Assembly (NCBI GenBank): GCA_943788985.1
Contig: CALSSJ010000010.1
Location: forward strand, 289,323 to 353,322
Source: an uncultured Lentisphaerales bacterium
GTDB taxonomy: Bacteria > Verrucomicrobiota > Lentisphaeria > JABSQK01 > UBA12247
Direction: 5' to 3'
Length of the DNA: 64,000 bases
Both the position numbers and the translations under genes were made by a program. Below the pieces are notes generated by a model that did no database searches, was not told where the DNA came from, and saw only the letters and a list, made by a program, of their open reading frames with translations. Below are positions 21,001-41,704 of the stretch, one piece after another; position 1 is the stretch's first letter, and each line of letters begins with the position of its first letter.

Positions 21001-21762
21001 ATTTGGACTGATTACGGCGGCGATATCCTGGACGGCGCTTCTACAGATCCGCTGAATCTACGCGGTGAGCAGGAGCTGGACCCTGTCACAAAGCTGCCTA
21101 CCGGTCGCATCATTCCGGGCACACAGGTTCGTGACACAGACATCTACGCCACTAACCTGAATGCCGCTGGCAGCATCACTCTCTCTGCTTGGGGCTGGAT
21201 TGGCAAGGACGTCGAGCATGTCCCATCCACTGACGGCGATCCACCACTCTTTGGCGACGTGGATCCGATCGAGCTGGATGCCGGTACTAACCTGACGTTC
21301 GAGTACTTGGGCGACCGCGATCTGGGAGCAACGTTCTGGGCACTGGCTGTAGGCGAGATCGACGGCGAGCGGGTTCCGGACAACGTAGACTTTGTGCACG
21401 CTGCTGATGAGGATCGCGTGCCACCAGGGTACATCTACTACAATGGCGATTTTGTCGGTGGTCAGACACAGCCAGTACGTGAGTACATCCGGATGCAGCA
21501 GGCACATCACATGATGCGCAAGCTGCTGCAGGAGCAAGCTGTTCTGCAGCCGGGCTACTTCACGCACGTACTTTCCGAGATGAACAATATCTGGGAGATC
21601 CCAGCCATTGAGTACATGAACAATGGTGGTGGCTATATCTTTGGCCTACCGGTTCATACTGAGCTTCCTGCACACATCGATATTCTCGAAATGCAGGACG
21701 ATCAGTTCCGTTGGGCCGAGAGCCCAGAGGAGCGCTCGCAGCGCAGTCAGCTGTCTAAGTAA
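2..21762 (+). CDS. Giant filamentous haemagglutinin/TpsA-like beta-helical surface protein (5' end outside the window; split by many apparent indel errors)
   Basis: Frame open from base 2. ORF fragments 41-3013, 2805-3806, 7340-8101, 8022-9398, 11109-12348, 12732-20903 and 20896-21762 share one A/G/T/D/V/I/N-rich beta-helix style (e.g. 'AGxDITLxAxxxI') and join across frame changes. Nearly Cys-free. Final stop TAA at 21760-21762. The TPS secretion domain would lie upstream and is not visible. Confidence 0.8.
3509..3637 (+). repeat. Perfect 60-bp tandem duplication (VTAGNDVTLANTTDATGDVT x2)
   Basis: 3509-3568 is repeated identically at 3569-3628, and identity continues to 3637. Confidence 0.9.
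7340..12800 (+). repeat. Intragenic tandem array of about 8 units of 660-690 bp (about 220-228 aa) in the haemagglutinin-like gene
   Basis: Marker ctgat(c/t)ac(t/g)ca ('LITQ/H') recurs at about 7382, 8067, 8751, 9436, 10109, 10797, 11457, 12118 and 12783. 'RANTGWIN/RADTGWIN' occurs once per unit. Confidence 0.85.
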
Positions 21763-21851
21763 GACAGCTTCTCTGTCCTGAAGGTTGAATAATTCGGTTG
21801 TCTAGACCGGACAACCGCTCAAACGGTTCCGGGGTTCAATTGAACCTCCGG
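21749..21851 (+). promoter_or_regulatory. Cluster of three inverted repeats between the two giant genes
   Basis: AGCTGTCT-AAGTA-AGACAGCT (21749-21769, spans the stop codon); CGGTTGTC-N7-GACAACCG (21795-21817); CCGG-GGTTCAATTGAACC-TCCGG (21829-21851). No clear U-tract. AGGA RBS at 21874-21877. Confidence 0.5.
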
Positions 21852-21886
21852 TTCCTTGTGTCTACAAATAAGCAGGAACGTAAATA

Positions 21887-24800
21887 ATGAACACGATTCA
21901 CTCAATACGAACTCTGACGTGGATGATCCTCGTCGGAGTTTTAGCAACACTTAACGGCTTGGCAGATGTCAGCGTACAGATTTCCCAGCCAGCCGCCGGT
22001 ATTTGGAATGGCGCCCCACTCCAAGATACCAAAGACGGAGAAGGCGACATCGTATCAGAAAATACTGACCCTAGGAGTAGTGTCACGATTGACGCGTCCG
22101 TGCCGATCACTGGTGGCGAGACGATCAACGAAGTGCTCTACGAATTCAGTTTTGACTCGGCCGCTGGTCCGTGGACTGAGATTCAGACTTTGGTCAATGG
22201 CGTCGATGATTTGAGTTCCTTTACGATTGAGTGGTCCGCAGCAGCCTCACTGACTGCTTGGATTGCGGCGAACGTTGCCGGGGACCCAAGTCTGACTGCG
22301 AACGAATCCGCGGATGGGAATCACAAGCGCGATGTCTGGCTGCGAGTCACCATTGATCACAGCGGTGGTACCTCTCAGACCGCGGAGCACTTGTTCCATC
22401 TGGACAATGAGCAACCGCAGGTAGATCCGATGCCGCAGTTGACGTTTCCGTACTACACGGCGTCCCGGACGGTCGCTCCAAACTGGCTCGCTGGGCAGGA
22501 CGGTACCCCACCGGAAGTGGACAGTACGTTGTTTACCGCTGCAGATGTAGCTGGTATTGATTCGTACAGAATCATTACCAACCAGGAATCGACGATGGTG
22601 CTGCCGCGGATTGAGAATAAGACCAAGCTTCCAACAAACGTCTCGCTCTCGGGGCCCGAAGTGAATCCGTTCTATATTCACGTTCGGACGCGTGACGCAA
22701 ACCTCAATGCCAATGGTGCCAACTGGACTGAGACGCGCTCGTGGGGTCCGATAATCGTAGACGAGACGCCTCCGGAGGTGACGATCACCCCCAACAGCGG
22801 CAGCATTCCCTGTGATCCAATTACGTTCACCGTGACCTTTAACGAGCTGGTGGACGATCACCCGCAGGTTGCGAATCGGGATCTATTTGATCCGGCCACG
22901 GAGATCAGCATCAGCTAACGGTACGCTTACGTTTCCCATACCGAAGGCACCGGCTCCGAGGAGAACTTGGTCTGGTACGTTGTGGTTGATCCAACGGTGA
23001 CGGGGCCGGTCACTCTGACAGTGGCTGCCGGGATGACGCACGACCAGGCAGGGAACAATAATAACGGCAATTCTGGGACTGTGGCCTATGCGGCCGGGAC
23101 TGTCGCCTTTGCAGCAGCAAGCAGTAGCGTGACCGAAGGGGCTGGTTCTGCTGCATTTGTGGTCGAGTTCAGTGCGGCCGTCGGCGTTGTGCTTGAATGT
23201 GAGTTTACCGTGGATGTGGTCGTGTCTGGCGGCACTGCCGTTGCGGGCGGCGACTACACTTTTAGCCCCGTGACCCAGACCGTGACTTTCGGGGTTGGCG
23301 ACGCGGATGGCGCCACGCGTGTGATTGGTGTTCCCATCACGAATGACACCGAGATTGAGTGTAACGAGACTGCCACCTTTCAGTTGCAGAACGTGGGGTT
23401 AAATCAGGCCGTGACTCTTGGCGCACAGACCGACCACGAATTGACGATTGATGATGACGCGGCCGACAGCGCGACTCTTCATTTCGTCGCATCGAGTGTG
23501 ACCTATTCTGAGAACTCCGGCGCCATCACTGTCGCCGTTGAGCTGGAAGCTGCCGGAGGTGTTACGCTGCAGTGTCCTTTGAGTGTGAACGTACGGGACC
23601 TGCAGAGCGGTTCTGCAAATGGCAGCGACTACTCGGTTCCAAGCGTCACGCAAATTCTTACTTTCGCACCCGGTGCCGCTAACGGGACAACAGCAGTTGC
23701 CCTCCTCACAATCACCGACGACAGCTTGATCGAGTGCGTGGATGAGACAGTTAACTTCATTTTGGAATCGGTCGTGACTGACAGCGCTGTGTTATTGGCC
23801 GCCTCTACGCTCCACACCGCAGTGATTCAGGACAACGACATCACGAGTATATCGTTGGTTGCGACTGATGCCGCGGCGGACGAAACGGGTGCCAACGATG
23901 GTACTTTTGCAGTTCGCCTCGATAGCGGAAACAACACGCAGGACGACATTGTCGTTACCTATATCGTGAGCGGCACTGCTTCCGATGGCACTGACTATGC
24001 TACGATTAGTGGTAGTGCCACAATCTCCGGCGGCACCTCCAGCACCACGATTGCCGTAGACGTCTCCTCGGACAGCTTGGCTGAGTGTGATGAAACGGTG
24101 GTTCTGACTCTTACTGCGGTTGGCTGCGGCTCGATCAATGGGAGTAGCTCCACCGACACCGTTACGATTACCGATAACACGCAAGGCGTGTCGATCGTTG
24201 CCACTGACAACACTGGGACTGAGGGCGTTGACAATGCGTCCTTCACGGTCGCTTTGGACAATGGTGATGTTGCCTCCACCAACTATGTGGTGAGCTACAC
24301 GATCAGCGGCACAGCGGACAATGGCACGGACTACACGACGATCGCCGATACGGTGACGATCCCAGCTGGTGCGAACAGCGCGGCAATCGCGATTACGGTG
24401 CTGGATGACGGTGTGGCCGATTGTAGTGAGACCGTGACCTTGATCCTGACTGGTGCCGACGACTGCCTGGTGCTGGGTGCGACCACGACTGCCGATGCTG
24501 ACATCGATGATCAGGCGCAGGGCGTTTCGATCACGGCGAGCGACGATCATGGGGTGGAAGACAGCGACCATGCTGAATTTACGGTATCGCTGGATACTGG
24601 CGACGTGGCCGAGCAGGCGTACGTGGTGAGCTACTCGATCACTGGGTCCGCCAGCAATGGCACGGACTATGCGACCATCGCGGACACGGTGACGATTCCG
24701 CAGGGTGCTTCTAGTGCGTCGATTACGATCACGGTGCTGGATGACGGTGTTGCTGATTGTAGCGAGACTGTGACGTTGACCCTGACTGGAGCGGACGACT

Positions 24801-27800
24801 GCCTGGTGCTGGGCGCGACCACGACTGCCGACGCTGACATCGACGATCAGGCGCAGGGCGTTTCGATCACGGCGAGCGACGACCATGGGGTGGAAGATAG
24901 CGATCACGCCGAATTTACGGTTTCGCTGGATACTGGCGACGTGGCCGAGCAGGCGTACGTGGTGAGCTACTCGATTACTGGTTCAGCCAGCAATGGCACG
25001 GACTACACGACGATCGCCGACACGGTGACGATTCCGCAGGGTGCTTCGAGCGCGTCGATTACGATCACGGTGCTGGATGACGGTGTTGCTGATTGTAGCG
25101 AGACTGTGACGTTGACTCTGACTGGCGCAGACGACTGCCTGGTGCTGGGTGCGACCACGACTGCCGACGCTGACATCGATGATCAGGCGCAGGGCGTTTC
25201 GATCACGGCGAGCGACGACCATGGGGTGGAAGACAGCGACCATGCCGAATTTACGGTATCGCTGGATACTGGCGACGTTGCCGAACAGGCGTACGTGGTG
25301 AGCTACTCGATTACTGGTTCAGCCAGCAATGGTACGGACTATGCGACCATCGCGGACACGGTGACGATTCCGCAGGGTGCTTCTAGTGCTGCGATTACGA
25401 TCACGGTGCTGGATGACGGTGTCGCTGATTGTAGCGAGACTGTGACGTTGACTCTGACCGGCGCAGACGACTGCCTGGTGCTGGGTGCGACCACGACTGC
25501 CGATGCTGACATCGATGATCAGGCGCAGGGCGTTTCGATCACGGCGAGCGACGACCATGGGGTGGAAGATAGCGATCACGCCGAATTTACGGTTTCGCTG
25601 GATACTGGCGACGTGGCCGAACAGGCGTACGTGGTGAGCTACTCGATCACTGGTTCAGCCAGCAATGGCACGGACTACACGACGATTGCGGACACGGTGA
25701 CGATTCCACAGGGTGCTTCTAGTGCGTCGATTACGATCACGGTGCTGGATGACGGTGTCGCTGATTGTAGCGAGACTGTGACGCTTGACTCTGACCGGTG
25801 CAGACGACTGCCTGGTGCTGGGTGCGACCACGACTGCCGACGCCGACATCGATGATCAGGCGCAGGGTGTTTCGATCACCGCGAGCGACGACCATGGTGT
25901 TGAAGACAGCGACCATGCCGAGTTTACGGTTTCGCTGGATACTGGCGACGTAGCCGAGCAGGCGTACGTGGTGAGCTACTCGATTACTGGTTCTGCCAGC
26001 AATGGCACGGACTATGCGACGATCGCGGACACGGTGACGATTCCACAGGGTGCTTCTAGTGCGTCGATTACGATCACGGTGCTGGATGACGGTGTCGCTG
26101 ATTGTAGCGAGACTGTGACGTTGACTCTGACCGGCGCAGACGACTGCCTGGTGCTGGGTGCGACCACGACTGCCGACGCTGACATCGATGATCAGGCGCA
26201 GGGCGTTTCGATCACCGCGAGCGACGACCATGGGGTTGAAGACAGCGACCATGCTGAGTTTACGGTCTCGCTGGATACTGGCGACGTGGCCGAGCAGGCG
26301 TACGTGGTGAGCTACTCGATCACTGGTTCAGCCAGCAATGGCACGGACTATGCGACCGATCGCGGACACGGTGACGATTCCGCAGGGTGCTTCGAGCGCG
26401 TCGATTACGATCACGGTGCTGGATGACGGTGTGGCTGATTGTAGCGAGACTGTGACGCTGACTCTCACTGGCGCAGACGACTGCCTGGTGCTGGGTGCGA
26501 CCACGACTGCCGATGCTGACATCGATGATCAGGCGCAGGGCGTTTCGATCACGGCGAGCGACGACCATGGGGTGGAAGATAGCGATCACGCCGAATTTAC
26601 GGTTTCGCTGGATACTGGCGACGTGGCCGAGCAGGCGTACGTGGTGAGCTACTCGATTACTGGTTCTGCCAGCAATGGTACGGACTATGCGACCATCGCG
26701 GACACGGTGACGATTCCACAGGGTGCTTCTAGTGCGTCGATTACGATCACGGTGCTGGATGACGGTGTCGCTGATTGTAGCGAGACTGTGACGCTTGACT
26801 CTGACCGGCGCAGACGACTGCCTGGTGCTGGGTGCGACCACGACTGCCGATGCCGACATCGATGATCAGGCGCAGGGCGTTTCGATCACCGCGAGCGACG
26901 ACCATGGTGTTGAAGACAGCGACCATGCTGAGTTTACGGTTTCGCTGGATACTGGCGATGTAGCCGAGCAGGCGTACGTGGTGAGCTACTCGATCACTGG
27001 GTCCGCCAGCAATGGCACGGACTATGCGACCATCGCGGACACGGTGACGATTCCACAGGGTGCTTCTAGTGCGTCGATTACGATCACGGTGCTGGATGAC
27101 GGTGTCGCTGATTGTAGCGAGACCGTGACGCTGACTCTGACTGGCGCAGACGACTGCCTGGTGCTGGGTGCGACCACGACTGCCGACGCTGACATCGATG
27201 ATCAGGCGCAGGGCGTTTCGATCACGGCGAGCGACGACCATGGGGTGGAAGACAGCGACCATGCCGAATTTACGGTATCGCTGGATACTGGCGACGTGGC
27301 CGAGCAGGCGTACGTGGTGAGCTACTCGATTACTGGTTCAGCCAGCAATGGCACGGACTACACGACGATCGCGGACACGGTGACGATTCCGCAGGGTGCT
27401 TCGAGTGCTCGATTACGATCACGGTGCTGGATGACGGTGTGGCTGATTGTAGCGAGACTGTGACGTTGACTCTGACTGGCGCAGACGACTGCCTGGTGCT
27501 GGGTGCGACCACGACTGCCGATGCTGACATCGATGATCAGGCGCAGGGCGTTTCGATCACGGCGAGCGACGACCATGGGGTGGAAGACAGCGACCATGCC
27601 GAATTTACGGTTTCGCTGGATACTGGCGACGTAGCCGAGCAGGCGTACGTGGTGAGCTACTCGATTACTGGTTCTGCCAGCAATGGCACGGACTACACGA
27701 CGATTGCTGACACGGTGACGATTCCACAGGGTGCTTCGAGTGCCTCGATTACGATCACGGTGCTGGATGACGGTGTTGCTGATTGTAGCGAGACCGTGAC

Positions 27801-30800
27801 GCTGACTCTGACCGGTGCAGACGACTGCCTGGTGCTGGGTGCGACCACGACTGCCGACGCCGACATCGATGATCAGGCGCAGGGCGTTTCGATCACGGCG
27901 AGCGACGACCATGGGGTGGAAGACAGCGACCATGCTGAATTTACGGTATCGCTGGATACTGGCGACGTAGCCGAACAGGCGTACGTGGTGAGCTACTCGA
28001 TTACTGGTTCTGCCAGCAATGGTACGGACTATGCGACCATCGCGGACACGGTGACGATTCCACAGGGTGCTTCTAGTGCGGCGATTACGATCACGGTGCT
28101 GGATGACGGTGTTGCTGATTGTAGCGAGACTGTGACGTTGACTCTGACTGGCGCAGACGACTGCCTGGTGCTGGGTGCGACCACGACTGCCGATGCCGAC
28201 ATCGATGATCAGGCGCAGGGCGTTTCGATCACGGCGAGCGACGACCATGGGGTGGAAGATAGCGATCACGCCGAATTTACGGTATCGCTGGATACTGGCG
28301 ACGTGGCCGAGCAGGCGTACGTGGTGAGCTACTCGATTACTGGCTCTGCCAGCAATGGCACGGACTACACCACGATCGCGGACACGGTGACGATTCCGCA
28401 GGGTGCTTCGAGTGCGTCGATTACGATCACGGTGCTGGATGACGGTGTGGCTGATTGTAGCGAGACCGTGACGCTTGACGCTGACTGGCGCAGACGACTG
28501 CCTGGTGCTGGGTGCGACCACGACTGCCGATGCTGACATCGATGATCAGGCGCAGGGCGTTTCGATCACGGCGAGCGACGACCATGGGGTGGAAGACAGC
28601 GACCATGCCGAGTTTACGGTATCGCTGGATACTGGCGACGTAGCCGAGCAGGCGTACGTGGTGAGCTACTCGATTACTGGTTCTGCCAGCAATGGCACGG
28701 ACTACACGACGATCGCGGACACGGTGACGATTCCGCAGGGTGCTTCTAGCGCGTCGATTACGATCACGGTGCTGGATGACGGTGTCGCTGATTGTAGCGA
28801 GACTGTGACGTTGACTCTGACTGGTGCCGACGACTGCCTGGTGCTGGGTGCGACCACGACTGCCGATGCTGACATCGATGATCAGGCGCAGGGCGTTTCG
28901 ATCACGGCGAGCGACGACCATGGGGTGGAAGACAGCGACCATGCCGAATTTACGGTATCGCTGGATACTGGCGACGTGGCCGAGCAGGCGTACGTGGTGA
29001 GCTACTCGATTACTGGTTCCGCCAGCAATGGCACGGACTACACGACGATCGCGGACACGGTGACGATTCCACAGGGTGCTTCGAGTGCTGCGATTACGAT
29101 CACGGTGCTGGATGACGGTGTTGCTGATTGTAGCGAGACTGTGACGCTGACTCTGACCGGTGCAGATGACTGCCTGGTGCTGGGTGCGACTACGACTGCC
29201 GACGCTGACATCGATGATCAGGCGCAGGGTGTTTCGATCACCGCGAGCGACGACCATGGTGTCGAAGATAGCGACCATGCTGAGTTTACCGTCTCGTTGG
29301 ATACTGGCGACGTGGCCGAACAGGCGTACGTGGTGAGCTACTCGATTACTGGTTCCGCCAGCAATGGCACGGACTACACGACGATCGCGGACACGGTGAC
29401 GATTCCACAGGGTGCTTCGAGTGCCTCGATTACGATCACGGTGTTGGATGACGGGGTTGCTGATTGTAGCGAGACTGTGACGTTGACCCTGACTGGCGCA
29501 GACGACTGCCTGGTGCTGGGTGCCAACACGACGGCCGATGCCGACATCGATGATCAGGCGCAGGGCGTTTCGATCACCGCGAGCGACGACCATGGGGTGG
29601 AAGACAGCGATCACGCCGAATTTACGGTATCGCTGGATACTGGCGACGTAGCCGAGCAGGCGTACGTGGTGAGCTACTCGATTACTGGTTCAGCCAGCAA
29701 TGGCACGGACTACACGACGATTGCGGACACGGTGACGATTCCGCAGGGTGCTTCTAGTGCGGCGATTACGATCACGGTGCTGGATGACGGTGTTGCTGAT
29801 TGTAGCGAGACCGTGACGCTGACTCTGACTGGCGCAGACGACTGCCTGGTGCTGGGTGCGACCACGACTGCCGATGCCGACATCGATGATCAGGCGCAGG
29901 GCGTTTCGATCACAGCAAGCGACGACCATGGTGTTGAAGACAGCGACCATGCTGAGTTTACGGTATCGCTGGATACTGGCGACGTAGCCGAGCAGGCCTA
30001 TGTGGTGAGCTACTCGATTACTGGTTCTGCCAGCAATGGCACGGACTACACGACGATCGCCGACACGGTGACGATTCCGCAGGGTGCCTCGAGTGCCACC
30101 ATTACGATTACGGTGCTGGATGACGGTGTTGCTGATTGTAGCGAGACCGTGACGCTGACTCTGACTGGTGCGGACGACTGCCTGGTGCTGGGTGCCAACA
30201 CGACTGCCGATGCAGACATCGATGATCAGGCGCAGGGTGTTTCGATCACCGCGAGCGACGACCATGGTGTCGAAGATAGCGACCATGCCGAATTTACGGT
30301 TTCGTTGGATACTGGCGACGTAGCCGAACAGGCGTACGTGGTGAGCTACTCGATTACTGGTTCTGCCAGCAATGGCACGGACTACACGACGATCGCCGAC
30401 ACGGTGACGATTCCGCAGGGTGCTTCGAGTGCCTCGATTACGATCACGGTGCTGGATGACGGTGTTGCTGATTGTAGCGAGACTGTGACGCTGACTCTGA
30501 CTGGCGCAGACGACTGCCTGGTGCTGGGTGCGACCACGACTGCCGACGCTGACATCGATGATCAGGCGCAGGGTGTTTCGATCACCGCGAGCGACGACCA
30601 TGGGGTGGAAGATAGCGACCATGCTGAGTTTACCGTCTCGCTGGATACTGGCGACGTGGCGGAGCAGGCGTACGTGGTGAGCTACTCGATTACTGGCTCT
30701 GCCAGCAATGGCACGGACTATGCGACCATCGCGGACACGGTGACGATTCCACAGGGTGCTTCTAGTGCGGCGATTACGATCACGGTGCTGGATGACGGTG

Positions 30801-33800
30801 TGGCTGATTGTAGCGAGACTGTGACGTTGACCCTGACTGGTGCAGACGACTGCCTGGTGCTGGGTGCGACCACGACTGCCGACGCTGATATCGATGATCA
30901 GGCGCAGGGCGTTTCGATCACGGCGAGCGACGACCATGGGGTGGAAGATAGCGACCACGCCGAATTTACGGTTTCGCTGGATACTGGCGACGTGGCCGAG
31001 CAGGCGTACGTGGTGAGCTACTCGATTACTGGTTCTGCCAGCAATGGTACGGACTATGCGACGATCGCGGACACGGTGACGATTCCGCAGGGTGCTTCGA
31101 GTGCGGCGATTACGATCACGGTGCTGGATGACGGTGTCGCTGATTGTAGCGAGACCGTGACGCTGACTCTGACTGGTGCGACGACTGCCTGGTGCTGGGT
31201 GCGACCACGACTGCCGATGCCGACATCGACGATCAGGCGCAGGGTGTTTCGATCACGGCGAGCGACGACCATGGTGTTGAAGACAGCGACCATGCTGAGT
31301 TTACGGTATCGCTGGATACTGGCGACGTGGCCGAGCAGGCGTACGTGGTGAGCTACTCGATTACTGGTTCTGCCAGCAATGGCACGGACTATGCGACCAT
31401 CGCGGACACGGTGACGATTCCACAGGGTGCTTCTAGTGCTTCGATTACGATCACGGTGCTGGATGACGGTGTTGCTGATTGTAGCGAGACTGTGACGCTG
31501 ACTCTCACCGGTGCAGACGACTGCCTGGTGCTGGGTGCGACCACGACTGCCGACGCTGACATCGACGATCAGGCGCAGGGCGTTTCGATCACGGCGAGCG
31601 ACGACCATGGGGTGGAAGATAGCGACCACGCCGAATTTACGGTTTCGCTGGATACTGGCGACGTAGCCGAACAGGCGTACGTGGTGAGCTACTCGATTAC
31701 TGGTTCGGCCAGCAATGGCACGGACTATGCGACCGATCGCGGACACGGTGACGATTCCACAGGGTGCTTCTAGTGCGTCGATTACGATCACCGTGCTGGA
31801 TGACGGTGTTGCTGATTGTAGCGAGACCGTGACGTTGACTCTGACCGGCGCAGACGACTGCCTGGTGCTGGGTGCGACCACGACTGCCGATGCCGACATC
31901 GATGATCAGGCGCAGGGCGTTTCGATCACGGCGAGCGACGACCATGGGGTGGAAGACAGCGACCATGCTGAGTTTACGGTTTCGCTGGATACTGGCGACG
32001 TAGCCGAGCAGGCGTACGTGGTGAGCTACTCGATTACTGGTTCAGCCAGCAATGGCACGGACTATGCGACCGATCGCGGACACGGTGACGATTCCGCAGG
32101 GTGCTTCGAGCGCTGCGATTACGATCACGGTGCTGGATGACGGTGTTGCTGATTGTAGCGAGACTGTGACGTTGACCCTGACTGGAGCGGACGACTGCCT
32201 GGTGCTGGGTGCGACCACGACTGCCGATGCCGACATCGATGATCAGGCGCAGGGCGTTTCGATCACGGCGAGCGACGACCATGGGGTTGAAGACAGCGAC
32301 CATGCCGAGTTTACGGTATCGCTGGATACTGGCGACGTAGCCGAGCAGGCGTACGTGGTGAGCTACTCGATTACTGGTTCTGCCAGCAATGGCACGGACT
32401 ACACGACGATCGCCGACACGGTGACGATTCCGCAGGGTGCTTCGAGTGCTCGATTACGATCACGGTGCTGGATGACGGTGTTGCTGATTGTAGCGAGACC
32501 GTGACGCTGACTCTGACTGGCGCAGACGACTGCCTGGTGCTGGGTGCGACCACGACTGCCGACGCCGACATCGATGATCAGGCGCAGGGCGTTTCGATCA
32601 CGGCGAGCGACGACCATGGGGTGGAAGACAGCGACCATGCCGAATTTACGGTATCGCTGGATACTGGCGACGTGGCCGAACAGGCGTACGTGGTGAGCTA
32701 CTCGATTACTGGTTCAGCCAGCAATGGCACGGACTACACGACGATCGCGGACACGGTGACGATTCCGCAGGGTGCTTCGAGTGCGGCGATTACGATCACG
32801 GTGCTGGATGACGGTGTCGCTGATTGTAGCGAGACCGTGACGCTGACTCTGACTGGCGCGGACGACTGCCTGGTGCTGGGTGCGACCACGACTGCCGATG
32901 CCGACATCGATGATCAGGCGCAGGGCGTTTCGATCACGGCGAGCGACGACCATGGGGTGGAAGACAGCGACCATGCCGAGTTTACGGTATCGCTGGATAC
33001 TGGCGACGTAGCCGAGCAGGCGTACGTGGTGAGCTACTCGATTACTGGTTCAGCCAGCAATGGCACGGACTACACGACGATCGCGGACACGGTGACGATT
33101 CCGCAGGGTGCTTCGAGTGCCTCGATTACGATCACGGTGCTGGATGACGGTGTTGCTGATTGTAGCGAGACCGTGACGTTGACTCTGACTGGTGCAGACG
33201 ACTGCCTGGTGCTGGGTGCGACCACGACTGCCGACGCTGACATCGATGATCAGGCGCAGGGCGTTTCGATCACGGCGAGCGACGACCATGGGGTGGAAGA
33301 CAGCGACCATGCTGAATTTACGGTTTCGCTGGATACTGGCGACGTGGCCGAACAGGCGTACGTGGTGAGCTACTCGATTACTGGTTCAGCCAGCAATGGC
33401 ACGGACTATGCGACCATCGCGGACACGGTGACCATTCCGCAGGGTGCTTCGAGTGCCTCGATTACGATCACGGTGCTGGATGACGGTGTTGCTGATTGTA
33501 GCGAGACCGTGACGCTGACTCTGACTGGTGCAGACGACTGCCTGGTGCTGGGTGCGACCACGACTGCCGATGCCGACATCGATGATCAGGCGCAGGGCGT
33601 TTCGATCACGGCGAGCGACGACCATGGGGTGGAAGACAGCGACCATGCCGAATTTACGGTATCGCTGGATACTGGCGACGTAGCCGAGCAGGCGTACGTG
33701 GTGAGCTACTCGATTACTGGTTCTGCCAGCAATGGCACGGACTACACGACGATTGCGGACACGGTGACGATTCCGCAGGGTGCTTCGAGCGCGGCGATTA

Positions 33801-36800
33801 CGATCACGGTGCTGGATGACGGTGTTGCTGATTGTAGCGAGACCGTGACGCTTGACTCTGACTGGCGCAGACGACTGCCTGGTGCTGGGTGCGACCACGA
33901 CTGCCGATGCCGACATCGATGATCAGGCGCAGGGCGTTTCGATCACGGCGAGCGACGACCATGGGGTGGAAGACAGCGACCATGCCGAATTTACGGTTTC
34001 GCTGGATACTGGCGACGTGGCCGAGCAGGCGTACGTGGTGAGCTACTCGATTACTGGTTCTGCCAGCAATGGCACGGACTACACGACGATCGCGGACACG
34101 GTGACGATTCCGCAGGGTGCTTCGAGTGCCACCATTACGATTACGGTGCTGGATGACGGTGTTGCTGATTGTAGCGAGACTGTGACGCTTGACTCTGACT
34201 GGTGCAGACGACTGCCTGGTGCTGGGTGCGACCACGACTGCCGACGCCGACATCGATGATCAGGCGCAGGGCGTTTCGATCACGGCGAGCGACGACCATG
34301 GGGTGGAAGACAGCGACCATGCCGAATTTACGGTTTCGCTGGATACTGGCGACGTAGCCGAGCAGGCGTACGTGGTGAGCTACTCGATTACTGGTTCTGC
34401 CAGCAATGGCACGGACTACACGACGATCGCGGACACGGTGACGATTCCGCAGGGTGCTTCGAGTGCGTCGATTACGATCACGGTGCTGGATGACGGTGTG
34501 GCTGATTGTAGCGAGACTGTGACGTTGACCCTGACTGGCGCAGACGACTGCCTGGTGCTGGGTGCGACCACGACTGCCGACGCTGACATCGATGATCAGG
34601 CGCAGGGCGTTTCGATCACGGCGAGCGACGACCATGGGGTGGAAGACAGCGACCATGCTGAGTTTACGGTTTCGCTGGATACTGGCGACGTGGCCGAGCA
34701 GGCGTACGTGGTGAGCTACTCGATTACTGGTTCTGCCAGCAATGGCACGGACTATGCGACCATCGCGGACACGGTGACGATTCCGCAGGGTGCTTCTAGT
34801 GCGTCGATTACGATCACGGTGCTGGATGACGGTGTGGCTGATTGTAGCGAGACTGTGACGTTGACTCTGACTGGCGCAGACGACTGCCTGGTGCTGGGTG
34901 CGACCACGACTGCCGATGCTGACATCGATGATCAGGCGCAGGGCGTTTCGATCACGGCGAGCGACGACCATGGGGTGGAAGATAGCGATCACGCCGAATT
35001 TACGGTATCGCTGGATACTGGCGACGTGGCCGAGCAGGCGTACGTGGTGAGCTACTCGATTACTGGTTCAGCCAGCAATGGCACGGACTACACGACGATC
35101 GCGGACACGGTGACGATTCCGCAGGGTGCTTCGAGTGCCTCGATTACGATCACGGTGCTGGATGACGGTGTTGCTGATTGTAGCGAGACTGTGACGTTGA
35201 CTCTGACCGGCGCAGACGACTGCCTGGTGCTGGGTGCGACCACGACTGCCGATGCTGACATCGATGATCAGGCGCAGGGCGTTTCGATCACGGCGAGCGA
35301 CGACCATGGGGTGGAAGACAGCGACCACGCCGAATTTACGGTTTCGCTGGATACTGGCGACGTGGCCGAACAGGCGTACGTGGTGAGCTACTCGATTACT
35401 GGTTCAGCCAGCAATGGCACGGACTATGCGACCATCGCGGACACGGTGACGATTCCACAGGGTGCTTCTAGTGCGTCGATTACGATCACGGTGCTGGATG
35501 ACGGTGTTGCTGATTGTAGCGAGACCGTGACGCTGACTCTGACTGGCGCAGACGACTGCCTGGTGCTGGGTGCGACCACGACTGCCGATGCCGACATCGA
35601 TGATCAGGCGCAGGGCGTTTCGATCACGGCGAGCGACGACCATGGGGTGGAAGACAGCGACCATGCCGAATTTACGGTTTCGCTGGATACTGGCGACGTA
35701 GCCGAACAGGCGTACGTGGTGAGCTACTCGATTACTGGTTCAGCCAGCAATGGCACGGACTACACGACCATCGCGGACACGGTGACGATTCCGCAGGGTG
35801 CTTCTAGTGCGTCGATTACGATCACGGTGCTGGATGACGGTGTTGCTGATTGTAGCGAGACTGTGACGCTTGACCCTGACTGGTGCGGACGACTGCCTGG
35901 TGCTGGGTGCGACCACGACTGCCGACGCTGACATCGACGATCAGGCGCAGGGCGTTTCGATCACGGCGAGCGACGACCATGGGGTGGAAGACAGCGACCA
36001 CGCCGAATTTACGGTTTCGCTGGATACTGGCGACGTGGCCGAACAGGCGTACGTGGTGAGCTACTCGATTACTGGTTCAGCCAGCAATGGCACGGACTAC
36101 ACGACGATCGCGGACACGGTGACGATTCCGCAGGGCGCTTCGAGTGCGTCGATTACGATCACGGTGCTGGATGACGGTGTGGCTGATTGTAGCGAGACCG
36201 TGACGCTGACACTGACTGGTGCCGACGACTGCCTGGTGCTGGGTGCGACTACGACTGCCGATGCCGACATCGACGATCAGGCGCAGGGCGTTTCGATCAC
36301 GGCGAGCGACGACCATGGGGTTGAAGACAGCGACCATGCCGAATTTACGGTATCGCTGGATACTGGCGACGTGGCCGAACAGGCGTACGTGGTGAGCTAC
36401 TCGATTACTGGCTCTGCCAGCAATGGTACGGACTACACCACGATTGCCGACACGGTGACGATTCCGCAGGGTGCTTCTAGTGCGTCGATTACGATCACGG
36501 TGCTGGATGACGGTGTGGCTGATTGTAGCGAGACCGTGACGCTTGACTCTGACCGGCGCAGACGACTGCCTGGTGCTGGGTGCGACCACGACTGCCGACG
36601 CTGACATCGATGATCAGGCGCAGGGCGTTTCGATCACCGCAAGCGACGACCATGGGGTGGAAGACAGCGACCATGCCGAGTTTACGGTTTCGCTGGATAC
36701 TGGCGACGTGGCCGAGCAGGCATACGTGGTGAGCTACTCGATTACTGGTTCAGCCAGCAATGGCACGGACTACACGACGATTGCTGACACGGTGACGATT

Positions 36801-39320
36801 CCACAGGGTGCTTCTAGTGCGTCGATTACGATCACGGTGCTGGATGACGGTGTCGCTGATTGTAGCGAGACTGTGACGTTGACTCTGACTGGTGCGGACG
36901 ACTGCCTGGTGCTGGGCGCGACCACGACTGCCGATGCCGACATCGACGATCAGGCGCAGGGCGTTTCGATCACGGCGAGCGACGACCATGGGGTGGAAGA
37001 CAGCGACCATGCTGAATTTACGGTTTCGCTGGATACTGGCGACGTAGCCGAGCAGGCGTACGTGGTGAGCTACTCGATTACTGGTTCTGCCAGCAATGGT
37101 ACGGACTATGCGACCATCGCGGACACGGTGACGATTCCGCAGGGTGCTTCGAGTGCGTCGATTACGATCACGGTGCTGGATGACGGTGTTGCTGATTGTA
37201 GCGAGACCGTGACCTTGACCCTGACTGGAGCGGACGACTGCCTGGTGCTGGGTGCGACCACGACTGCCGATGCGGACATTTACGACAAGACGCAGGGCGT
37301 TTCGATTACTGCGAGCGACGACACCGGGACCGAGGATGTCGATGATGCTGCGTTCACAGTCTGGTTGGATACAGGCGACGTAGCCGAGCAGGCGTACGTG
37401 GTGAGCTACACGATTAGCGGCACAGCTGACAACGGCACAGACTACACGACCTTATCGGGGACGGTTACAATCCCTGCTGGTGCAACCAGTGCCGGCATCG
37501 CAATCGCGGTTCTGGATGACGGCATCGCTGATTGTAGCGAGACCGTAACGCTAACTTTGACTGGTGCCGAGGATTGCTTGGTGATCGGTGGGGCAACCAC
37601 AGACAGCGCCGACATCCACGATCGAGCACAGGGCGTGTCCTTGGTGGTGACTGATTCGTTTGGCAAGGAAGGAACGCCGGTAAACGATGCCTCATTTGCT
37701 GTCGTTCTTGACAATGGGCAGGTTGCTGGATTCGACATCACGGTCAGCTACTCGATTTCTGGTAGTGCCGCCAACAGCAGCGACTATGCAACGTTATCCG
37801 GTGCAGTGACCATCACGGAGGGCAGCAGCAGTGCACAGATCTTGGTCGATGTGACCGACGACGTGCTTGTAGAGGCAACGGAGTCCGTGATTGCCACTCT
37901 GACTGGCGCCGACGATTGTGTGGCAGTGGGGGCCGTTACGACCGGAACCGCCGAGATCGAAGACAACGATACCTTCATCGATGTACGTGTGAACGAGGCA
38001 TACCGTGAGAATCACTGGGTACCGGTTCGGATTGATGTAAGCAGCGTACCGCTGCAGACGTTGGTCTTCTCGCTTACCTATCCTCGCAACGATCTGCGCT
38101 ACAACAACCGCATCGACCGCCTGGATGAGGGCACCGGAACCGCGACGATCGCAGGCCCAACGCCCGTGCCCGCACCGCGTGTTATCGCTGGCTCGGACTA
38201 CTTCGCGATCGAGGATAATGAGTCCGTACCAGGAATGACCAAGCTGTGGATTGCGGTGGATGCCGATCCGCAGGCTGCCAGCTCAGCCAATCCAACCAGC
38301 CCGCCTGAACAGGGCGAGGTAGCGATCACTGATACTCGCCTGGGCAGCGTTCTGGAGCTTGGTTTCCGGATCCGTGTAGGTGCTGAGGTCAAGACCGATT
38401 CGATCACCTTCGTCTTGGACGATGTGACTGCCTTTACCTCTGATGGTGCGGGGCTGCCTATTCCTGAGCGCATCAACGACCCGATCGATGTGAACACGGA
38501 ACTGAACCGTGGTGATTATGACGAGAACGGCATCGTCGAGCCATTGTCTGACGCTGTGGCATTCTACCGAGCTCTGCTCTGGGGCGATGTCAATGGGCTC
38601 GTGCCGATCTTGCCTGAGAATCAGCGCAATCCGTTCGATCACGAAGACGAGTCGATCCCCGAAGAAGACCGTGAGGACAATGACCTGCCACACCGCGCTC
38701 GCGATGGCGAGATCATTGCCTTGGTGCGGTCGATGATCGCTGAGACCGTTTTGGGCATCTCGATCGTCGACTTTGACGAGGATGGCGAGGTGACTGCTGG
38801 TCGTGACGGGCCGTATTATGTGCGTCGTCTCCGGGCGCTAAGTTATGGTCTGCCTGCTGCGTACACTGCGCCAAGCGGTCACACCGGTGCGGATATCGCA
38901 GCCATCAATACTAAGATTGATGGGTTGGTATCACACGCAGGTGTTGATTACGGCGAAGTCAATGACGTCACAGAGGCTGCTTTCGGCTATGTTTATCCTC
39001 GCGACACCTCACTGATTGCGGACGACCGGGCGATCATAATTCGTTTCAACGAGAGCATGCGTGCCAGCAACATGAATCTCGATCTGCATGACGAGACCAC
39101 GATCGGTGCTCTACTGACTGTGACTAACGGCTCGCTATTGGTGGAAGGCGTAGACTACGACGTCTCGCTTGATCGCGACGCCCGTGCCATTCGGATCGTA
39201 CCCACGGGCACTTGGGCGTCCGGCCCGTTGTCGGTTGATGTCGACCACACATTGATGTGGGATGTGGAAGAAATGCAGTCCAGCGGCGTGACGACTGTGA
39301 CGTTCACAGTCTTGCCCTGA
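21887..39320 (+). CDS. Giant Sec-exported Calx-beta repeat adhesin-like protein (about 5,800 aa): signal peptide, N-terminal Ig-like domains, 44 Calx-beta-type domains, then cohesin-like, dockerin-like and Big_5-like C-terminal modules; broken by apparent consensus errors
   Basis: AGGA RBS and ATG at 21887, signal peptide MNTIHSIRTLTWMILVGVLATLNGLA. Repeats carry Calx-beta motifs 'GSASNGTDY', 'VTIPxG', 'ITVLDDxxxxxxETVTLTL' and 'IDD'. ORF pieces from 21887-22918 through 36543-39320 join, and the TAA at 22916 is in frame with 22967. Confidence 0.88.
24509..37283 (+). repeat. 38 tandem near-identical 336-bp (112-aa) Calx-beta coding repeats
   Basis: gatcaggcgcaggg (DQAQG) recurs every 335-337 bp from about 24509 to about 36948 (38 copies counted). 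Four diverged domains lie upstream (from about 23095) and two downstream (about 37284 and 37620). Confidence 0.95.
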
Positions 39321-39363: not shown

Positions 39364-39511
39364 CTTGGGACAACAAGGGCTGGTGGAGATGACCGTGAAT
39401 TTCATGTCGTTGAAGGCAGAACCTCCGGCGAAAAATCGGTCTGGCAATTGAAAAATCAGGGCAGTCGTGCGTTTTGAGATAGGAGACTGTCGAACCACTT
39501 GCGCTTCTGAT

Positions 39512-41704
39512 ATGCATGCTCGCACGTTCCTTCTGTTTTTGACCGGCCTCTTGATGCTCGCCCCCAGCGCTGTCGCCTGCCGCATTCCTTGGATTGAACC
39601 GGTGCCACCGCATCCGCATCCTCAGGTGTCAGTCAGGCCAGCGCTTCAGCCGCTTGTCACCCAGCGGCACGTAGCTGAGATTGAAATTGCGGAGGGGATT
39701 GCAAACATCGCAATCTCTGTGCGGTTTCATAATCCCAACCATCAACAGGTCGAAGGCACCTACTTCTTGCCAATCGAGGCAGATGCCGTGGTTCGCGATT
39801 TCGAGATGATCATGGACGGAAAGTCGTTAAAGGCAGAACTTCTGGGAGCCGATCAGGCCAGAAGAATCTACGAGGAAATCGTGCGTAAAATGAAGGATCC
39901 GGGGCTCCTCGAATACGTGGGAGGCAGGATGCTAAGGGCACGAATCTTTCCAATCGCCGCACAGGGGGAGGTCGATGTGATCGTGCGCTACCAGGTAGTC
40001 CCAAGAAAGGACGGCACGTTGTATCACCTGCGATATTCGTTGCGTTCTGCAAAACCGAATGTCGGTTCAATCGAATCGCTCTCATTCCGGGTGACGCTAA
40101 ACGACGATCGGCCTGTTAAGCTGTTCTACTCTCCGAGCCATCCGATCGACAGCATCCGGCGATCCAACCACCACGTATCGGGTGGGTTTGAACAGGCCGA
40201 CGTGGTGCCTGACCGGGACTTTGACCTGTACTGGTCTGTGGAGGAGGCAAATGTAGGTGTCGCTGTGCTCACACATCGCTCGGATACGCACGATGGGTTC
40301 TGTATGATTTCTCTCACACCGCAGGTGTAGGTTCGCCGTAGAGATGTCATGCAAAAGAACCTGATCTTCGTGTTTGACCGCTCAGGAAGCATGTCAGGCC
40401 GCAAGATTGAACAGGCCAGGAATTCGCTGACGTATTGCCTGGACAGGCTGAATCCAGACGATCGCTTTGCCGTGCTGCTGTTTGGAGCCGAGGTGGATGA
40501 TCTGAGCGATGGCATGCAGCCAGCTTCACCGGAGGCGCTTGCCAAGGCTAAGAAGCGGGTCGCGGATGTTACAGCGCGGGGCGGGACCGCAATTGGCAGT
40601 GCCTTGAGGCACGCGATTGAGGTCGCAAGTAGGGCTGAGGGCCTGGTAATGATTGTATTTCTCACCGATGGCAAGCCCACGATCGGCGAAGTCGATGTCC
40701 CACGAATCCTCAAAACTGTTCAAGCGAAGAACAAGAGCGCTCGCATTTTTGCGTTCGGTGTTGGTGACAGCATAAACACTGACCTGCTGGATCGACTGGC
40801 TCGCCAGAACCGTGGCACGCAAAGCTATGTGGGCGAGAGCGAGAGTATCGAGCTGAAGATCTCCGATTTTTACGACAAGATTGCCACCCCGGTCCTTTCG
40901 GAAGTGAGCGTGTCGGTTGGCGGTGTGCAACTGCGCGACATGTACCCACGCCAGATCGGAGACCTTTTCGGCGGAAGCCAGCAGTTGGTCTTTGGCCGTT
41001 TCCGAGGGGAGGGGAGGCAGACCGTGGTCGTGACAGGCAAGGTCGCGGACAGAACAGCGGCGTTTGAGTGCGAGGCAGACTTTAGCGCAACAAAGAAGCG
41101 TACCTTCATCCCCGCTCTGTGGGCGCATCGCAAGGTCGCCTTTTTGCTGGAAGAGATCCGAGTGAACGGCAAACGCCGGGAGCTTGTCGACGAGGTGGTC
41201 CGGCTTGGCCGGCGGTATGGTATTATGACGCCCTATACCTCGCTGCTGATTGTGGAGGATGAAGAGCATGCTGCCGCGCCAGTTATTCGTCGACAGCGTG
41301 CCGAGTTTGAGCACGCCAGATTCGGTGCCCGGGCAGTAGGGTGAAGTTGCAGATTGGCTGCTAGTAAGTCCGTAGCCGTTGAGTCCGCAGGCGATGAATT
41401 TTCTTTTGGCGCGGATTTTTCGGGGCCGTCTGCGAGCGACTCTGGTGGCTTTTTTGCCACCCAGGCCGTACTACCGGAGTTTCGCAAGATCGCAGGACGA
41501 ACATTCTATCGGGACGATGCAGGCGTCTTTATTGAGGCCGGTCTAGAGGGGGAGCTCAAGCCGAGCGTCATACTCGAAGTGCTGGCTGATGAAACCTTTG
41601 CCCTGCTCATGGAAATCCCGGCGCTGGTGCCCTTCGTCTCCGCCAATTTGGACCTGCTGGTTTGCGTAGATGGCGTGGTCTATCGTCTGCTTGCGGTCAA
41701 GTAG
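39512..41704 (+). pseudogene. Secreted VIT (vault inter-alpha-trypsin) + von Willebrand A domain protein interrupted by in-frame TAG (40328) and TGA (41342)
   Basis: ORFs 39467-40330, 40349-41344 and 41354-41704 are in one frame. Signal peptide MHARTFLLFLTGLLMLAPSAVA; VIT motifs 'EGTYFLP' and 'ARRIYEEIVRKMKDPGLLEY'; MIDAS 'DRSGSM' and 'FLTDG'; 'IMTPYTSLLI'. Confidence 0.8.

What the first reader, a model, noticed from the sequence alone, without database searches (positions are those of the whole stretch)
22811..37919. Calx-beta rod in which every domain appears disulfide-stapled to the next
Seen: the protein has one Cys in the Ig domain before the array (SIP-C-DP, 22811), two Cys in each of Calx domains 1-43, only one Cys in domain 44 (ADD-C-VA, 37917, where the usual 'DCSE' is replaced by 'EATE'), and none afterwards. 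In the repeat the two Cys flank one long strand (D-C-SETVTLTLTGADD-C). Established: in the Calx-beta sandwich the acidic 'DD..E..E' loop lies at the C-terminal Ca-binding pole, and the loop after the next strand lies at the opposite pole. Inference: an intradomain bond is unlikely, so the Cys pair across junctions: PCDP-LECEF, IECNE-LQCPL, IECVD-VGCGS, AECDE-ADDCL, then DCSE(n)-DDCL(n+1), up to DDCVA. This uses all 88 Cys in 44 inter-domain staples and explains both lone terminal Cys. The partner Cys even moves to a different loop between domains 1-2 and 3-44. The result would be a covalently braced, Ca-rigidified filament of roughly 0.2 um. The T1SS extender adhesins I know (LapA, SiiE, MpIBP) rely on calcium rather than disulfides.
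Basis: partly seen in the sequence, partly recalled or inferred. Interest (0 to 1): 0.86.

Follow-up and report, generated by a model that had tools for sequence, protein, structure and literature searches.

The report
Calx-beta rod with junction cysteine pairs
A giant exported surface protein of a marine Lentisphaeria bacterium is a chain of 44 calcium-binding Calx-beta domains whose cysteines are placed so that each domain can be disulfide-bonded to the next, a bracing principle not described for bacterial surface rods.

Summary
The cysteine pattern is real: 88 Cys, namely 1 in an Ig-like domain, 2 in each of Calx domains 1-43, 1 in domain 44 and none after. These breaks look like consensus artefacts. 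Contigs from 4 of 4 other metagenome studies lack the TAA, all 13 indels sit on sites that vary between repeat copies, and other assemblies hold intact ORFs.

The inter-domain reading is supported indirectly:
- In an AlphaFold2 model (pLDDT 93.9) the two Cys of one domain flank a 10-residue strand F.
- Across 360 proteins, all 125 adjacent domain pairs with an EF-loop Cys in domain n have a BC- or FG-loop Cys in domain n+1.
- Arrays start with EF-only domains and end with N-pole-only domains, also in a second, separate Calx family.

Open points: SG-SG distances could not be measured. No DsbA, DsbB or VKOR was found in this genome. Its exported proteins show no even-Cys bias.

The protein has a Sec-type leader and no RTX signal, so it is not a T1SS adhesin. 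Copy number depends on the assembly.

Verdict: a new variant of a known kind, with moderate-to-high interest.

The parts
21887..39320 (+). Whole gene as read through: leader, N-terminal beta-sandwich region, Ig-like domain, 44 Calx-beta domains, 450-aa Cys-free C-terminal module, stop codon
   Evidence: Intact ORFs of the same species in other assemblies: P0060/P0276, N-terminus 756/760 and C-terminus 460/460 or 459/460 identical.
21887..21964 (+). Sec-type signal peptide (MNTIHSIRTLTWMILVGVLATLNGLA), judged by eye
   Evidence: Translation. The orthologue P0151 also starts with a hydrophobic leader. No predictor was run.
22745..23095 (+). Ig-like domain with the lone Cys at 22811-22813 (SIPCDP)
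   Evidence: The intact version from P0060 gives a weak full-length Pfam Big_12 match (E 0.001, 19.7 bits, below the cut-off). The Cys is conserved as SVPCDP in P0151.
22916..22918 (+). In-frame TAA, most likely a consensus artefact
   Evidence: Contigs of 4 of 4 runs from 4 studies lack 3 bases here and read ...ISITNGAYVSH... or ...ISISNGTYVSH.... P0060, P0275 and P0276 read EISITNGAYVSHTEG.
23096..23836 (+). Calx1 and Calx2: N-pole Cys in the BC loop (LECEF 23198, LQCPL 23573) and EF-loop Cys (IECNE 23360, IECVD 23735)
23843..24520 (+). Calx3 (AECDE 24086, VGCGS 24125) and Calx4 (first DCSE/DDCL domain)
24319..37590 (+). 336-bp tandem array, 39.5 copies, holding 13 one-base indels near 25784, 26356, 26794, 27409, 28474, 31180, 31733, 32070, 32450, 33851, 34188, 35869 and 36542
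   Evidence: TRF, unit spacing of 335/336/337, indel sites and their context, synonymous variation
36954..37967 (+). Calx42-44, the stretch that was modelled; domain 44 has only the FG-loop Cys (37917-37919)
   Evidence: AF2 pLDDT 93.9, pTM 0.77; single domain against CALX CBD1 gives Z 13.6, rmsd 2.4 A over 111 residues
37968..39317 (+). C-terminal 450-aa module without Cys; the most conserved part of the protein
   Evidence: 69% identical to P0151. No Pfam or NCBIfam hit. Atlas points to Big_5 and cohesin/dockerin clusters as leads only.

Best explanation
The locus encodes one giant Sec-exported surface protein of an uncultured marine Lentisphaeria bacterium. It consists of a leader, N-terminal Ig-like domains, about 44 Calx-beta domains and a conserved Cys-free C-terminal module.

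The TAA and the 13 frameshifts are consensus errors of an assembly made over a repeat and a mixed population. The gene is intact in nature.

Each Calx domain keeps the acidic Ca-binding residues. In addition it carries one Cys at its C-terminal pole, in the EF loop two residues before the conserved Glu, and one Cys at its N-terminal pole. The N-pole Cys lies in the BC loop in Calx1-2 and in the FG loop from Calx3 on. The EF-loop Cys of domain n pairs with the N-pole Cys of domain n+1. The Ig-like domain supplies the first partner, and domain 44 lacks the EF-loop Cys.

Inference: in the oxidised protein, strand F of every domain (13 residues between the two Cys) is joined by S-S to strand F of the next. 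This would give a continuous covalent spine with almost no hidden length. The rod, about 0.2 um long, would then be stiffened by Ca, hard to stretch by unfolding, and not severed by a nick anywhere outside strand F.

Because no Dsb oxidase was found, oxidation is probably templated by the folded junction outside the cell in oxic seawater.
For: - Cys map and 44 domains.
- Calx-beta identity: Pfam and fold Z 13.6.
- Acidic ligand columns are conserved in 44 of 44 domains.
- The same-domain Cys flank strand F in a confident model.
- Offset rule: 125 of 125 pairs overall, 82 of 82 without the window. Per protein: WIN 43, P0151 22, P0260 28, P0013 13, P0174 11, P0223 7, P0338 1, with no exception.
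- At array ends the Cys are replaced: VEATE, VEGAE or VEEDE at last domains, and RTGST or RDGFT at first domains.
- Both Cys are kept in about 20 repeats of P0151 that are only 50-65% identical to one another.
- In the window array, 57 of 112 codons vary and only 3 change the residue.
- The solved tandem Calx interface uses the EF loop of one domain and the BC and FG loops of the next (PMC3386913, section 6; alignment).
- Gene intactness: orthologue ORFs of 3356-4680 aa; indels sit on polymorphic sites.
- The stretch is held by 20 marine or estuary metagenome runs from 10 studies.
Against: - No distance was measured, so the pairing rests on topology and co-occurrence.
- The model's two-domain geometry does not superpose on CBD12 (rmsd 9-11 A), so specific contacts cannot be transferred.
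- DsbA (PF01323), Thioredoxin_4 (PF13462), DsbB (PF02600) and VKOR (PF07884) gave no hit in the 83.6%-complete genome. In genomes of the same order or class (G000 included in both counts), DSBA was found in 4 of 21 and VKOR in 1 of 21.
- In a crude test, 389 leader-bearing ORFs have 0.82% Cys, with 156 even and 176 odd counts. This organism does not look like a habitual maker of envelope disulfides.
- The lineages behind the 125 pairs are few, six at most, and kin are not independent.
- P0275 ends in the same out-of-frame tail as the window's commonest frameshift. That indel type therefore recurs in another assembly and could be real.
- The frameshifts inside the array were not checked with reads.
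Confidence: 0.6

Rival explanations
1. The Cys of neighbouring domains are juxtaposed at each junction but are not a permanent disulfide. They stay reduced, cycle as a redox switch, or jointly bind a thiol-loving metal next to the Ca sites.
For: No DsbA, DsbB or VKOR was found. Exported proteins are Cys-poor with no even bias. A DsbD-type reductant transporter is present. An earlier scan note reports a thiol-metal export module in this genome (e1-1500581; not tested here).
Against: Residues around the N-pole Cys are not conserved between families (GADDC, G.SCG, R.GC[TS]), which does not suit a defined metal site. Two thiols held together in oxic seawater would be expected to oxidise (inference). 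The offset pattern is explained equally well by a disulfide.
Confidence: 0.15
2. The Cys form disulfides between different chains. The EF-loop Cys of one rod bonds the N-pole Cys of a neighbouring rod at the same junction level, knitting rods into bundles or a sheet.
For: The same end-of-array parity would be expected. The even Cys count fits as well.
Against: Partners within one chain are held together by a 2-4-residue linker (gaps), so their local concentration is far higher (inference). There is no evidence of oligomerisation, and the complex predictor was unavailable.
Confidence: 0.07
3. The two Cys of one domain bond to each other (intradomain).
For: 43 of 44 window domains have exactly two Cys.
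Against: They flank a 10-residue beta strand in a model with pLDDT 93.9. Seven EF-only and eleven N-pole-only domains would be left unpaired in the proteins. In the BC/EF type the two Cys also lie at opposite poles.
Confidence: 0.02
4. The gene is truly dead in this genome. The TAA and the 13 frameshifts are real mutations, and the Cys pattern is a relic.
For: The sequence as given is broken. P0275 from another assembly carries the same kind of frameshift tail. Neighbouring genes are broken too: VIT-vWA by a TAG, and the carbamoyltransferase by a frame change.
Against: Of 57 variable codons, 54 are purely synonymous. All four distinct indel sites lie on or next to sites that vary between copies, and the extra base equals the other allele. 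All 4 independent runs lack the TAA. Breaks in unrelated neighbouring genes point to assembly quality rather than decay of this gene.
Confidence: 0.08

Closest known systems
Tandem Calx-beta domains CBD1-CBD2 of Na+/Ca2+ exchangers (NCX1 3US9; CALX 3RB5/3RB7)
   Same: Same fold (Z 13.1-13.6) and same acidic Ca-ligand motif. The interface is built from the EF loop of domain 1 and the BC and FG loops of domain 2 (PMC3386913, section 6), which are the three loops that carry the Cys here.
   Different: CBD12 has two cytosolic domains, bent, held by Ca and salt bridges, with no disulfide. Here there are about 44 extracellular domains in a straight rod. Two-domain fits have rmsd 9-11 A, and there is a Cys pair at every junction.
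Ca-rigidified extender regions of T1SS RTX adhesins (MpIBP RII, SiiE, LapA-like; PMC7493085, PMC4083281)
   Same: Long arrays of near-identical beta-sandwich repeats with Ca at the junctions. The three-domain model fits such a rod (6xi3: Z 10.3, rmsd 5.8 A over 279 residues).
   Different: Those use BIg-type repeats, are secreted unfolded by T1SS, and rely on Ca alone; the words 'cysteine' and 'disulfide' do not occur in PMC7493085. Here the repeat is Calx-beta, the leader is Sec-type, no RTX match was found, and Cys is 1.5% of residues.
P0013/P0174/P0223 family of Calx-beta array proteins (unnamed metagenome and genome proteins)
   Same: EF-loop Cys in domain n and N-pole Cys in n+1, with EF-only first and N-pole-only last domains. 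Each protein holds two such runs.
   Different: The partner is always in the BC loop (R.GC[TS]). There are other flanking domains (cadherin-like, DUF11, P_proprotein). One junction in mid-array has no pair. In a weak tree these domains group apart from the window's.
Covalently braced Gram-positive pilins and stalk proteins with isopeptide bonds (recalled, not searched)
   Same: Covalent cross-links that make a surface fibre resistant to force and proteases.
   Different: Lys-Asn/Asp isopeptides within a domain or between subunits, not cystines between successive domains of one chain.
Thrombospondin type 3 repeat 'wire' (abstract of PMC2289535 seen in a search listing; repeat-to-repeat pairing recalled)
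   Same: A Ca-loaded repeat array that is also held by disulfides.
   Different: Short Ca-binding loops rather than beta-sandwich domains; eukaryotic; disulfides made in the ER.

Membership tests
Calx-beta domain (Pfam PF03160) | Profile match above the gathering score | tested here: met
   212.9 bits (8 stretches) and 111.7 bits against a cut-off of 27; 44 domains by an HMM built here
Calx-beta domain (Pfam PF03160) | Seven-strand beta-sandwich fold like CBD1 or integrin beta4 Calx | tested here: met
   AF2 pLDDT 93.9; 3e9t_A Z 13.6, rmsd 2.4 A over 111 residues; 3fq4 Z 12.4
Calx-beta domain (Pfam PF03160) | Acidic Ca-ligand positions (AB-loop E, DD...E..E of the EF loop, C-terminal D.D) | tested here: met
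   E16, D52, D78, D/E82, E85 and D112 in 44 of 44 domains; column 111 is D in 39 of 44. Ca binding itself cannot be tested here.
T1SS RTX 'extender' adhesins (LapA, SiiE, MpIBP type) | C-terminal RTX nonapeptide repeats and T1SS signal, with no Sec leader | tested here: not met
   No RTX family among Pfam hits for the C-terminal 926 or 472 residues. An N-terminal hydrophobic leader is present (by eye).
T1SS RTX 'extender' adhesins (LapA, SiiE, MpIBP type) | Tandem, near-identical Ca-binding beta-sandwich repeats forming a rod | tested here: met
Fibrillar adhesin (stalk plus adhesive end domain) | A recognisable adhesive or anchor domain at one end | tested here: inconclusive
   The N-terminal 343 aa and the C-terminal 450 aa have no Pfam or NCBIfam hit. 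Atlas gives only leads: Ig-like, Big_5, cohesin/dockerin.
Cohesin/dockerin modules | Pfam Cohesin (PF00963) or Dockerin_1 (PF00404) match in the C-terminal module | tested here: inconclusive
   No hit at E<=1. Atlas clusters with these families score 0.77-0.80. The D.D.DG-like motifs were seen by eye only.
Substrate of a Dsb-type oxidative folding pathway | DsbA/DsbB or DsbA/VKOR encoded in the genome | tested here: not met
   No hit for PF01323, PF13462, PF02600 or PF07884 in the 83.6%-complete genome. DsbD_TM is present, and generic thioredoxin-fold hits exist.

The most novel reading that the evidence does not exclude
Serial inter-domain cystines turn a Calx-beta array into a rod with a continuous covalent spine: strand F, then S-S, then strand F, for about 44 domains. 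Such a spine has almost no hidden length, so the fibre could not be lengthened by unfolding. The bracing arose more than once in Calx-beta arrays, using either a BC-loop or an FG-loop partner. It forms without any Dsb oxidase, by junction-templated oxidation in seawater. This would be a new design principle for bacterial surface fibres and a natural template for inextensible protein rods.
Probability: 0.3. Interest if true: 0.8.

Novelty: new variant of a known kind. Interest (0 to 1): 0.64.

Why it matters
Known long bacterial surface rods are stiffened by calcium (RTX adhesins) or by isopeptide bonds (Gram-positive pili). A rod in which every junction is also closed by a cystine would be a third solution.

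Its mechanics would be unusual and can be tested. Because the two Cys of a domain flank one strand, the cystines would chain the F strands into a spine. The prediction is no sawtooth unfolding when oxidised, and increments of about 112 residues after reduction.

The finding also raises the question of how 44 interleaved disulfides form in an organism where no Dsb system was found.

On the practical side, it shows that this assembly writes false stops and frameshifts at heterogeneous sites. Gene calls in this genome's repeats therefore need care.

Tried and rejected
- Complex prediction on Calx43 plus Calx44 with Ca never ran.
- A second AF2 job (N-terminus, Ig, Calx1-6 of P0275, alignment A5) was not accepted, so the Ig-Calx1 staple rests on Cys conservation alone.
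- Stop-codon reassignment was rejected, because the in-frame stops in the window are TAA, TAG and TGA.
- The search for related loci with the C-terminal module in genome contigs found no relative.
- The N-terminal 343 aa was found only in the window's own genome, plus one weak hit, among 151 genomes of the class. P0060 residues 30-530 has no relatives beyond its own family in the 853-2715 aa band.
- The Ig stretch has no PDB sequence hit.
- Literature: no paper holds 'Calx-beta' + 'disulfide' + 'interdomain'. The 11 papers with 'Calx-beta' + 'cysteine' + 'disulfide' concern other domains; 10 were listed and one, PMC11670116, was checked by passages. Searches on inter-domain disulfides in tandem or surface proteins gave nothing comparable.
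- Promoter and terminator scans around the gene ends were uninformative.
- The domain tree is weak, so one origin of the Cys pair is not ruled out.


Full report
WHAT IS IN THE SEQUENCE

The + strand between 21887 and 39317 is not one ORF as assembled. It falls into 15 in-frame pieces, separated by an in-frame TAA at 22916-22918 and 13 frame changes. Tandem Repeats Finder reports a 336-bp unit, 39.5 copies, 94% matches, at 24319-37590. Anchoring on a 12-base motif gives 39 copies spaced 335, 336 or 337 bases apart. Aligning 38 units shows the following indels:
- 7 insertions of C at unit column 22;
- 3 insertions of C at column 258;
- 2 deletions at column 302;
- 1 deletion at column 40.

An HMM built from the unit finds 44 Calx-beta domains, and Pfam Calx-beta is far above its cut-off.

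ARE THE BREAKS REAL?

They probably are not.

(a) Each indel sits on or beside a site that differs between copies. At column 22, the other copies read GACG-TTGAC or GACG-CTGAC, while the shifted copies read GACGCTTGAC, which holds both alleles. At column 258, CGATC and CCATC become CCGATC. At columns 302 and 40 the variable base is simply missing. Only 47 of 338 columns are polymorphic.

(b) Logan contigs of 4 runs from 4 studies were laid on 21500-24300. All lack three bases around the TAA. They read either ...EISITNGAYVSH... or ...EISISNGTYVSH..., so the window looks like a blend of two haplotypes.

(c) Proteins P0060, P0277 and P0276 from other assemblies share the N-terminus (756 of 760 identical) and the C-terminus (460/460 and 459/460). 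They run as single ORFs through that site, with 6 or 7 Calx domains.

(d) Among 37 units, 57 of 112 codons vary and only 3 change the residue. Summed over pairs, there are 10364 differences in synonymous codon pairs against 808 in non-synonymous ones. That pattern means purifying selection, not decay.

(e) Other genes in the window are broken too: VIT-vWA by a TAG, and the carbamoyltransferase by a frame change. This points to assembly quality.

Against this reading: P0275 (1094 aa) ends in the same out-of-frame tail as the column-22 shifts. That event therefore recurs elsewhere, either as a systematic artefact or as a real variant. I also could not lay reads on the array itself.

Copy number depends on the assembly. 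The window's species shows 6, 7 or 44 domains, and the orthologue shows 23 or 31.

WHOSE GENE IT IS

The genome has 4.58 Mb in 48 contigs and is 83.6% complete. Members of the orthologue's cluster are named 'Lentisphaeria bacterium', and an earlier scan note on this genome says the same. The stretch is held by 20 marine or estuary metagenome runs from 10 studies.

The family is narrow. The N-terminal 343 aa is found only in the window's own genome, plus one weak hit, among 151 genomes of the class, and has no wider relatives.

The protein starts with a hydrophobic leader (seen by eye). Then come Ig-like regions (Atlas leads) and an Ig-like domain with a weak full-length Big_12 match. After the array there is a 450-aa Cys-free module. 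This module is the best-conserved part, 69% identical to P0151, and has no family match. Cohesin/dockerin and Big_5 are leads only. There is no RTX match, so this is not a T1SS adhesin.

WHERE THE CYS SIT

HMMER alignments to CALX and NCX1 CBD1 put Cys1 on NCX1 E452. In 3US9 the aligned K is the E454K mutation, which fixes the numbering. Cys2 falls in the FG loop.

AF2 of Calx42-44 (alignment of 23 rows) gave pLDDT 93.9 and pTM 0.77. Strand F spans residues 84-93, with Cys at 82 and 96. The strand order implies that the EF loop lies at the C-terminal pole and the BC and FG loops at the N-terminal pole.

A single domain fits CALX CBD1 with Z 13.6 and rmsd 2.4 A. The three-domain model fits straight rods such as 6xi3 (rmsd 5.8 A over 279 residues) but not the bent CBD12 (rmsd 9-11 A).

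In the solved CBD12, the interface is made by the Ca-binding loops of domain 1, including the EF loop, together with the linker and the FG and BC loops of domain 2. F450 packs on the FG loop, and residue 454 lies 4.7 A from E625 (PMC3386913, section 6, read in full). The Cys-bearing loops are therefore the junction loops, although exact contacts cannot be transferred to this protein.

From the canonical Ig-like topology (recalled, not tested), strands C and F are neighbours. The two alternative partner sites, just before strand C and just after strand F, would then lie side by side.

THE EVOLUTIONARY TEST

I segmented 380 proteins from three searches (plus cluster members) into 6697 Calx domains and scored Cys by HMM column. 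Before counting, I dropped 21 same-cluster or same-species rows: P0272, P0262-P0267, P0274-P0277, P0060, P0257-P0259, P0261, P0271, P0084 and P0268-P0270. That left 360 proteins, window included, with 6504 domains.

All 125 adjacent pairs with an EF-loop Cys (columns 82-84) in domain n have a BC- or FG-loop Cys in n+1. Without the window the count is 82 of 82. The per-protein counts are WIN 43, P0151 22, P0260 28 (a same-cluster variant that I kept), P0013 13, P0174 11, P0223 7 and P0338 1. In contrast, 7 EF-Cys domains have no N-pole Cys of their own.

The array patterns are:
- window family: BE BE EF...EF F, for 6, 7, 23 and 31 domains;
- P0013: E BE BE B | E BE(x9) B, and likewise in P0174 and P0223.

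At the ends the Cys are replaced by Ser, Phe, Gly, Glu or Ala. In P0151 both Cys persist through about 20 repeats that are only 50-65% identical. Its only other upstream Cys lie in the leader, and the Ig Cys is conserved.

Caveats:
- At most six lineages stand behind these counts.
- 36 pairs have an N-pole Cys without a preceding EF Cys.
- Six proteins carry a lone Cys at column 81 with no partner.
- A quick tree places the three Cys-bearing domain groups apart, but it is weak.

MECHANISM

Steps that are shown:
- Calx fold and conserved Ca-ligand residues;
- Cys positions;
- the one-domain offset in Cys co-occurrence.

Steps that are inferred:
- Cys1(n) bonds Cys2(n+1).
- Because the two Cys of a domain flank strand F, the cystines chain the F strands into a covalent spine of about 14 residues per domain, which is roughly the domain's length.
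- The oxidised rod would therefore have almost no hidden length and would survive nicks outside strand F.
- With 44 domains of about 4.5-5 nm each (recalled size; CBD12 Dmax is 107-135 A for two domains, PMC3386913 Table 2), the rod would be about 0.2 um long.

EVIDENCE AGAINST DISULFIDE FORMATION

No DsbA, Thioredoxin_4, DsbB or VKOR was found in the genome. In 21 genomes of the same order or class (G000 included), DSBA occurs in 4 and VKOR in 1. DsbD is present.

A crude count on 389 leader-bearing ORFs gives 0.82% Cys, with 156 even and 176 odd counts. The 2518 ORFs without a leader have 1.56% Cys. This resembles the 'cysteine exclusion' described for some bacteria (PMC2823432, abstract read). 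The leader heuristic is rough and the assembly is error-prone.

If the cystines form, they probably do so outside the cell, templated by the folded junction.

NOVELTY

Most giant Calx proteins are almost Cys-free: among the 150 best hits the median is 0.12%, and 34 have none. My searches found no description of Calx-beta inter-domain disulfides or of serially stapled bacterial rods. The RTX-extender paper does not contain the words 'cysteine' or 'disulfide'.

I file this as a new variant of a known kind. It is a Calx-beta stalk protein, not a T1SS adhesin, with a predicted cystine at every junction.

Noticed in passing
window 1-21762 (+): Large open pieces (41-3013, 8022-9398, 12732-20903 = 2723 aa, 20896-21762) with 0-3 Cys, no Pfam or NCBIfam hit, and recurring N-terminal text (TIDAGGLITQDAAIGSDN...). 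This looks like one or more giant repetitive exoproteins, possibly also split by frame errors.
   Followed up: partly
window 45871-50763 (-): A 1630-aa Cys-free protein whose last ~380 residues match ShlB/FhaC and Omp85. A TpsB-like transporter with a very long N-terminal part, lying near the giant exoprotein genes.
   Followed up: no
window 39467-41344 (+): A VIT-plus-vWA protein is cut by an in-frame TAG at 40328. The frame runs on again after a TGA at 41342. Whether these stops are real was not checked.
   Followed up: no
window 59899-60952 (+): Carbamoyltransferase N- and C-terminal parts lie in two overlapping frames. This is another probable frameshift error of the assembly.
   Followed up: no
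window 21828: All 4 runs laid have an extra C behind 21828, in the spacer upstream of the gene's start.
   Followed up: no
window 24755-37530: Protein-identical repeats are synonymously diversified: 54 of 57 variable codons change no residue, and alleles are shuffled among units. This may reflect gene conversion with strong selection, or selection against perfect DNA repeats.
   Followed up: partly
P0260 residues 3071-3482: In a 4680-aa orthologue variant, an RCC1-like beta-propeller region is inserted inside one Calx-beta domain, which resumes at the same HMM column.
   Followed up: partly
P0013 domains 4/5; P0174 4/5; P0223 3/4: Each protein of the second family has one junction in mid-array with no Cys pair (B-only followed by E-only). 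This may be a built-in hinge.
   Followed up: no
window 3498-3643: A 60-bp tandem repeat, 2.4 copies, 96% matches.
   Followed up: no
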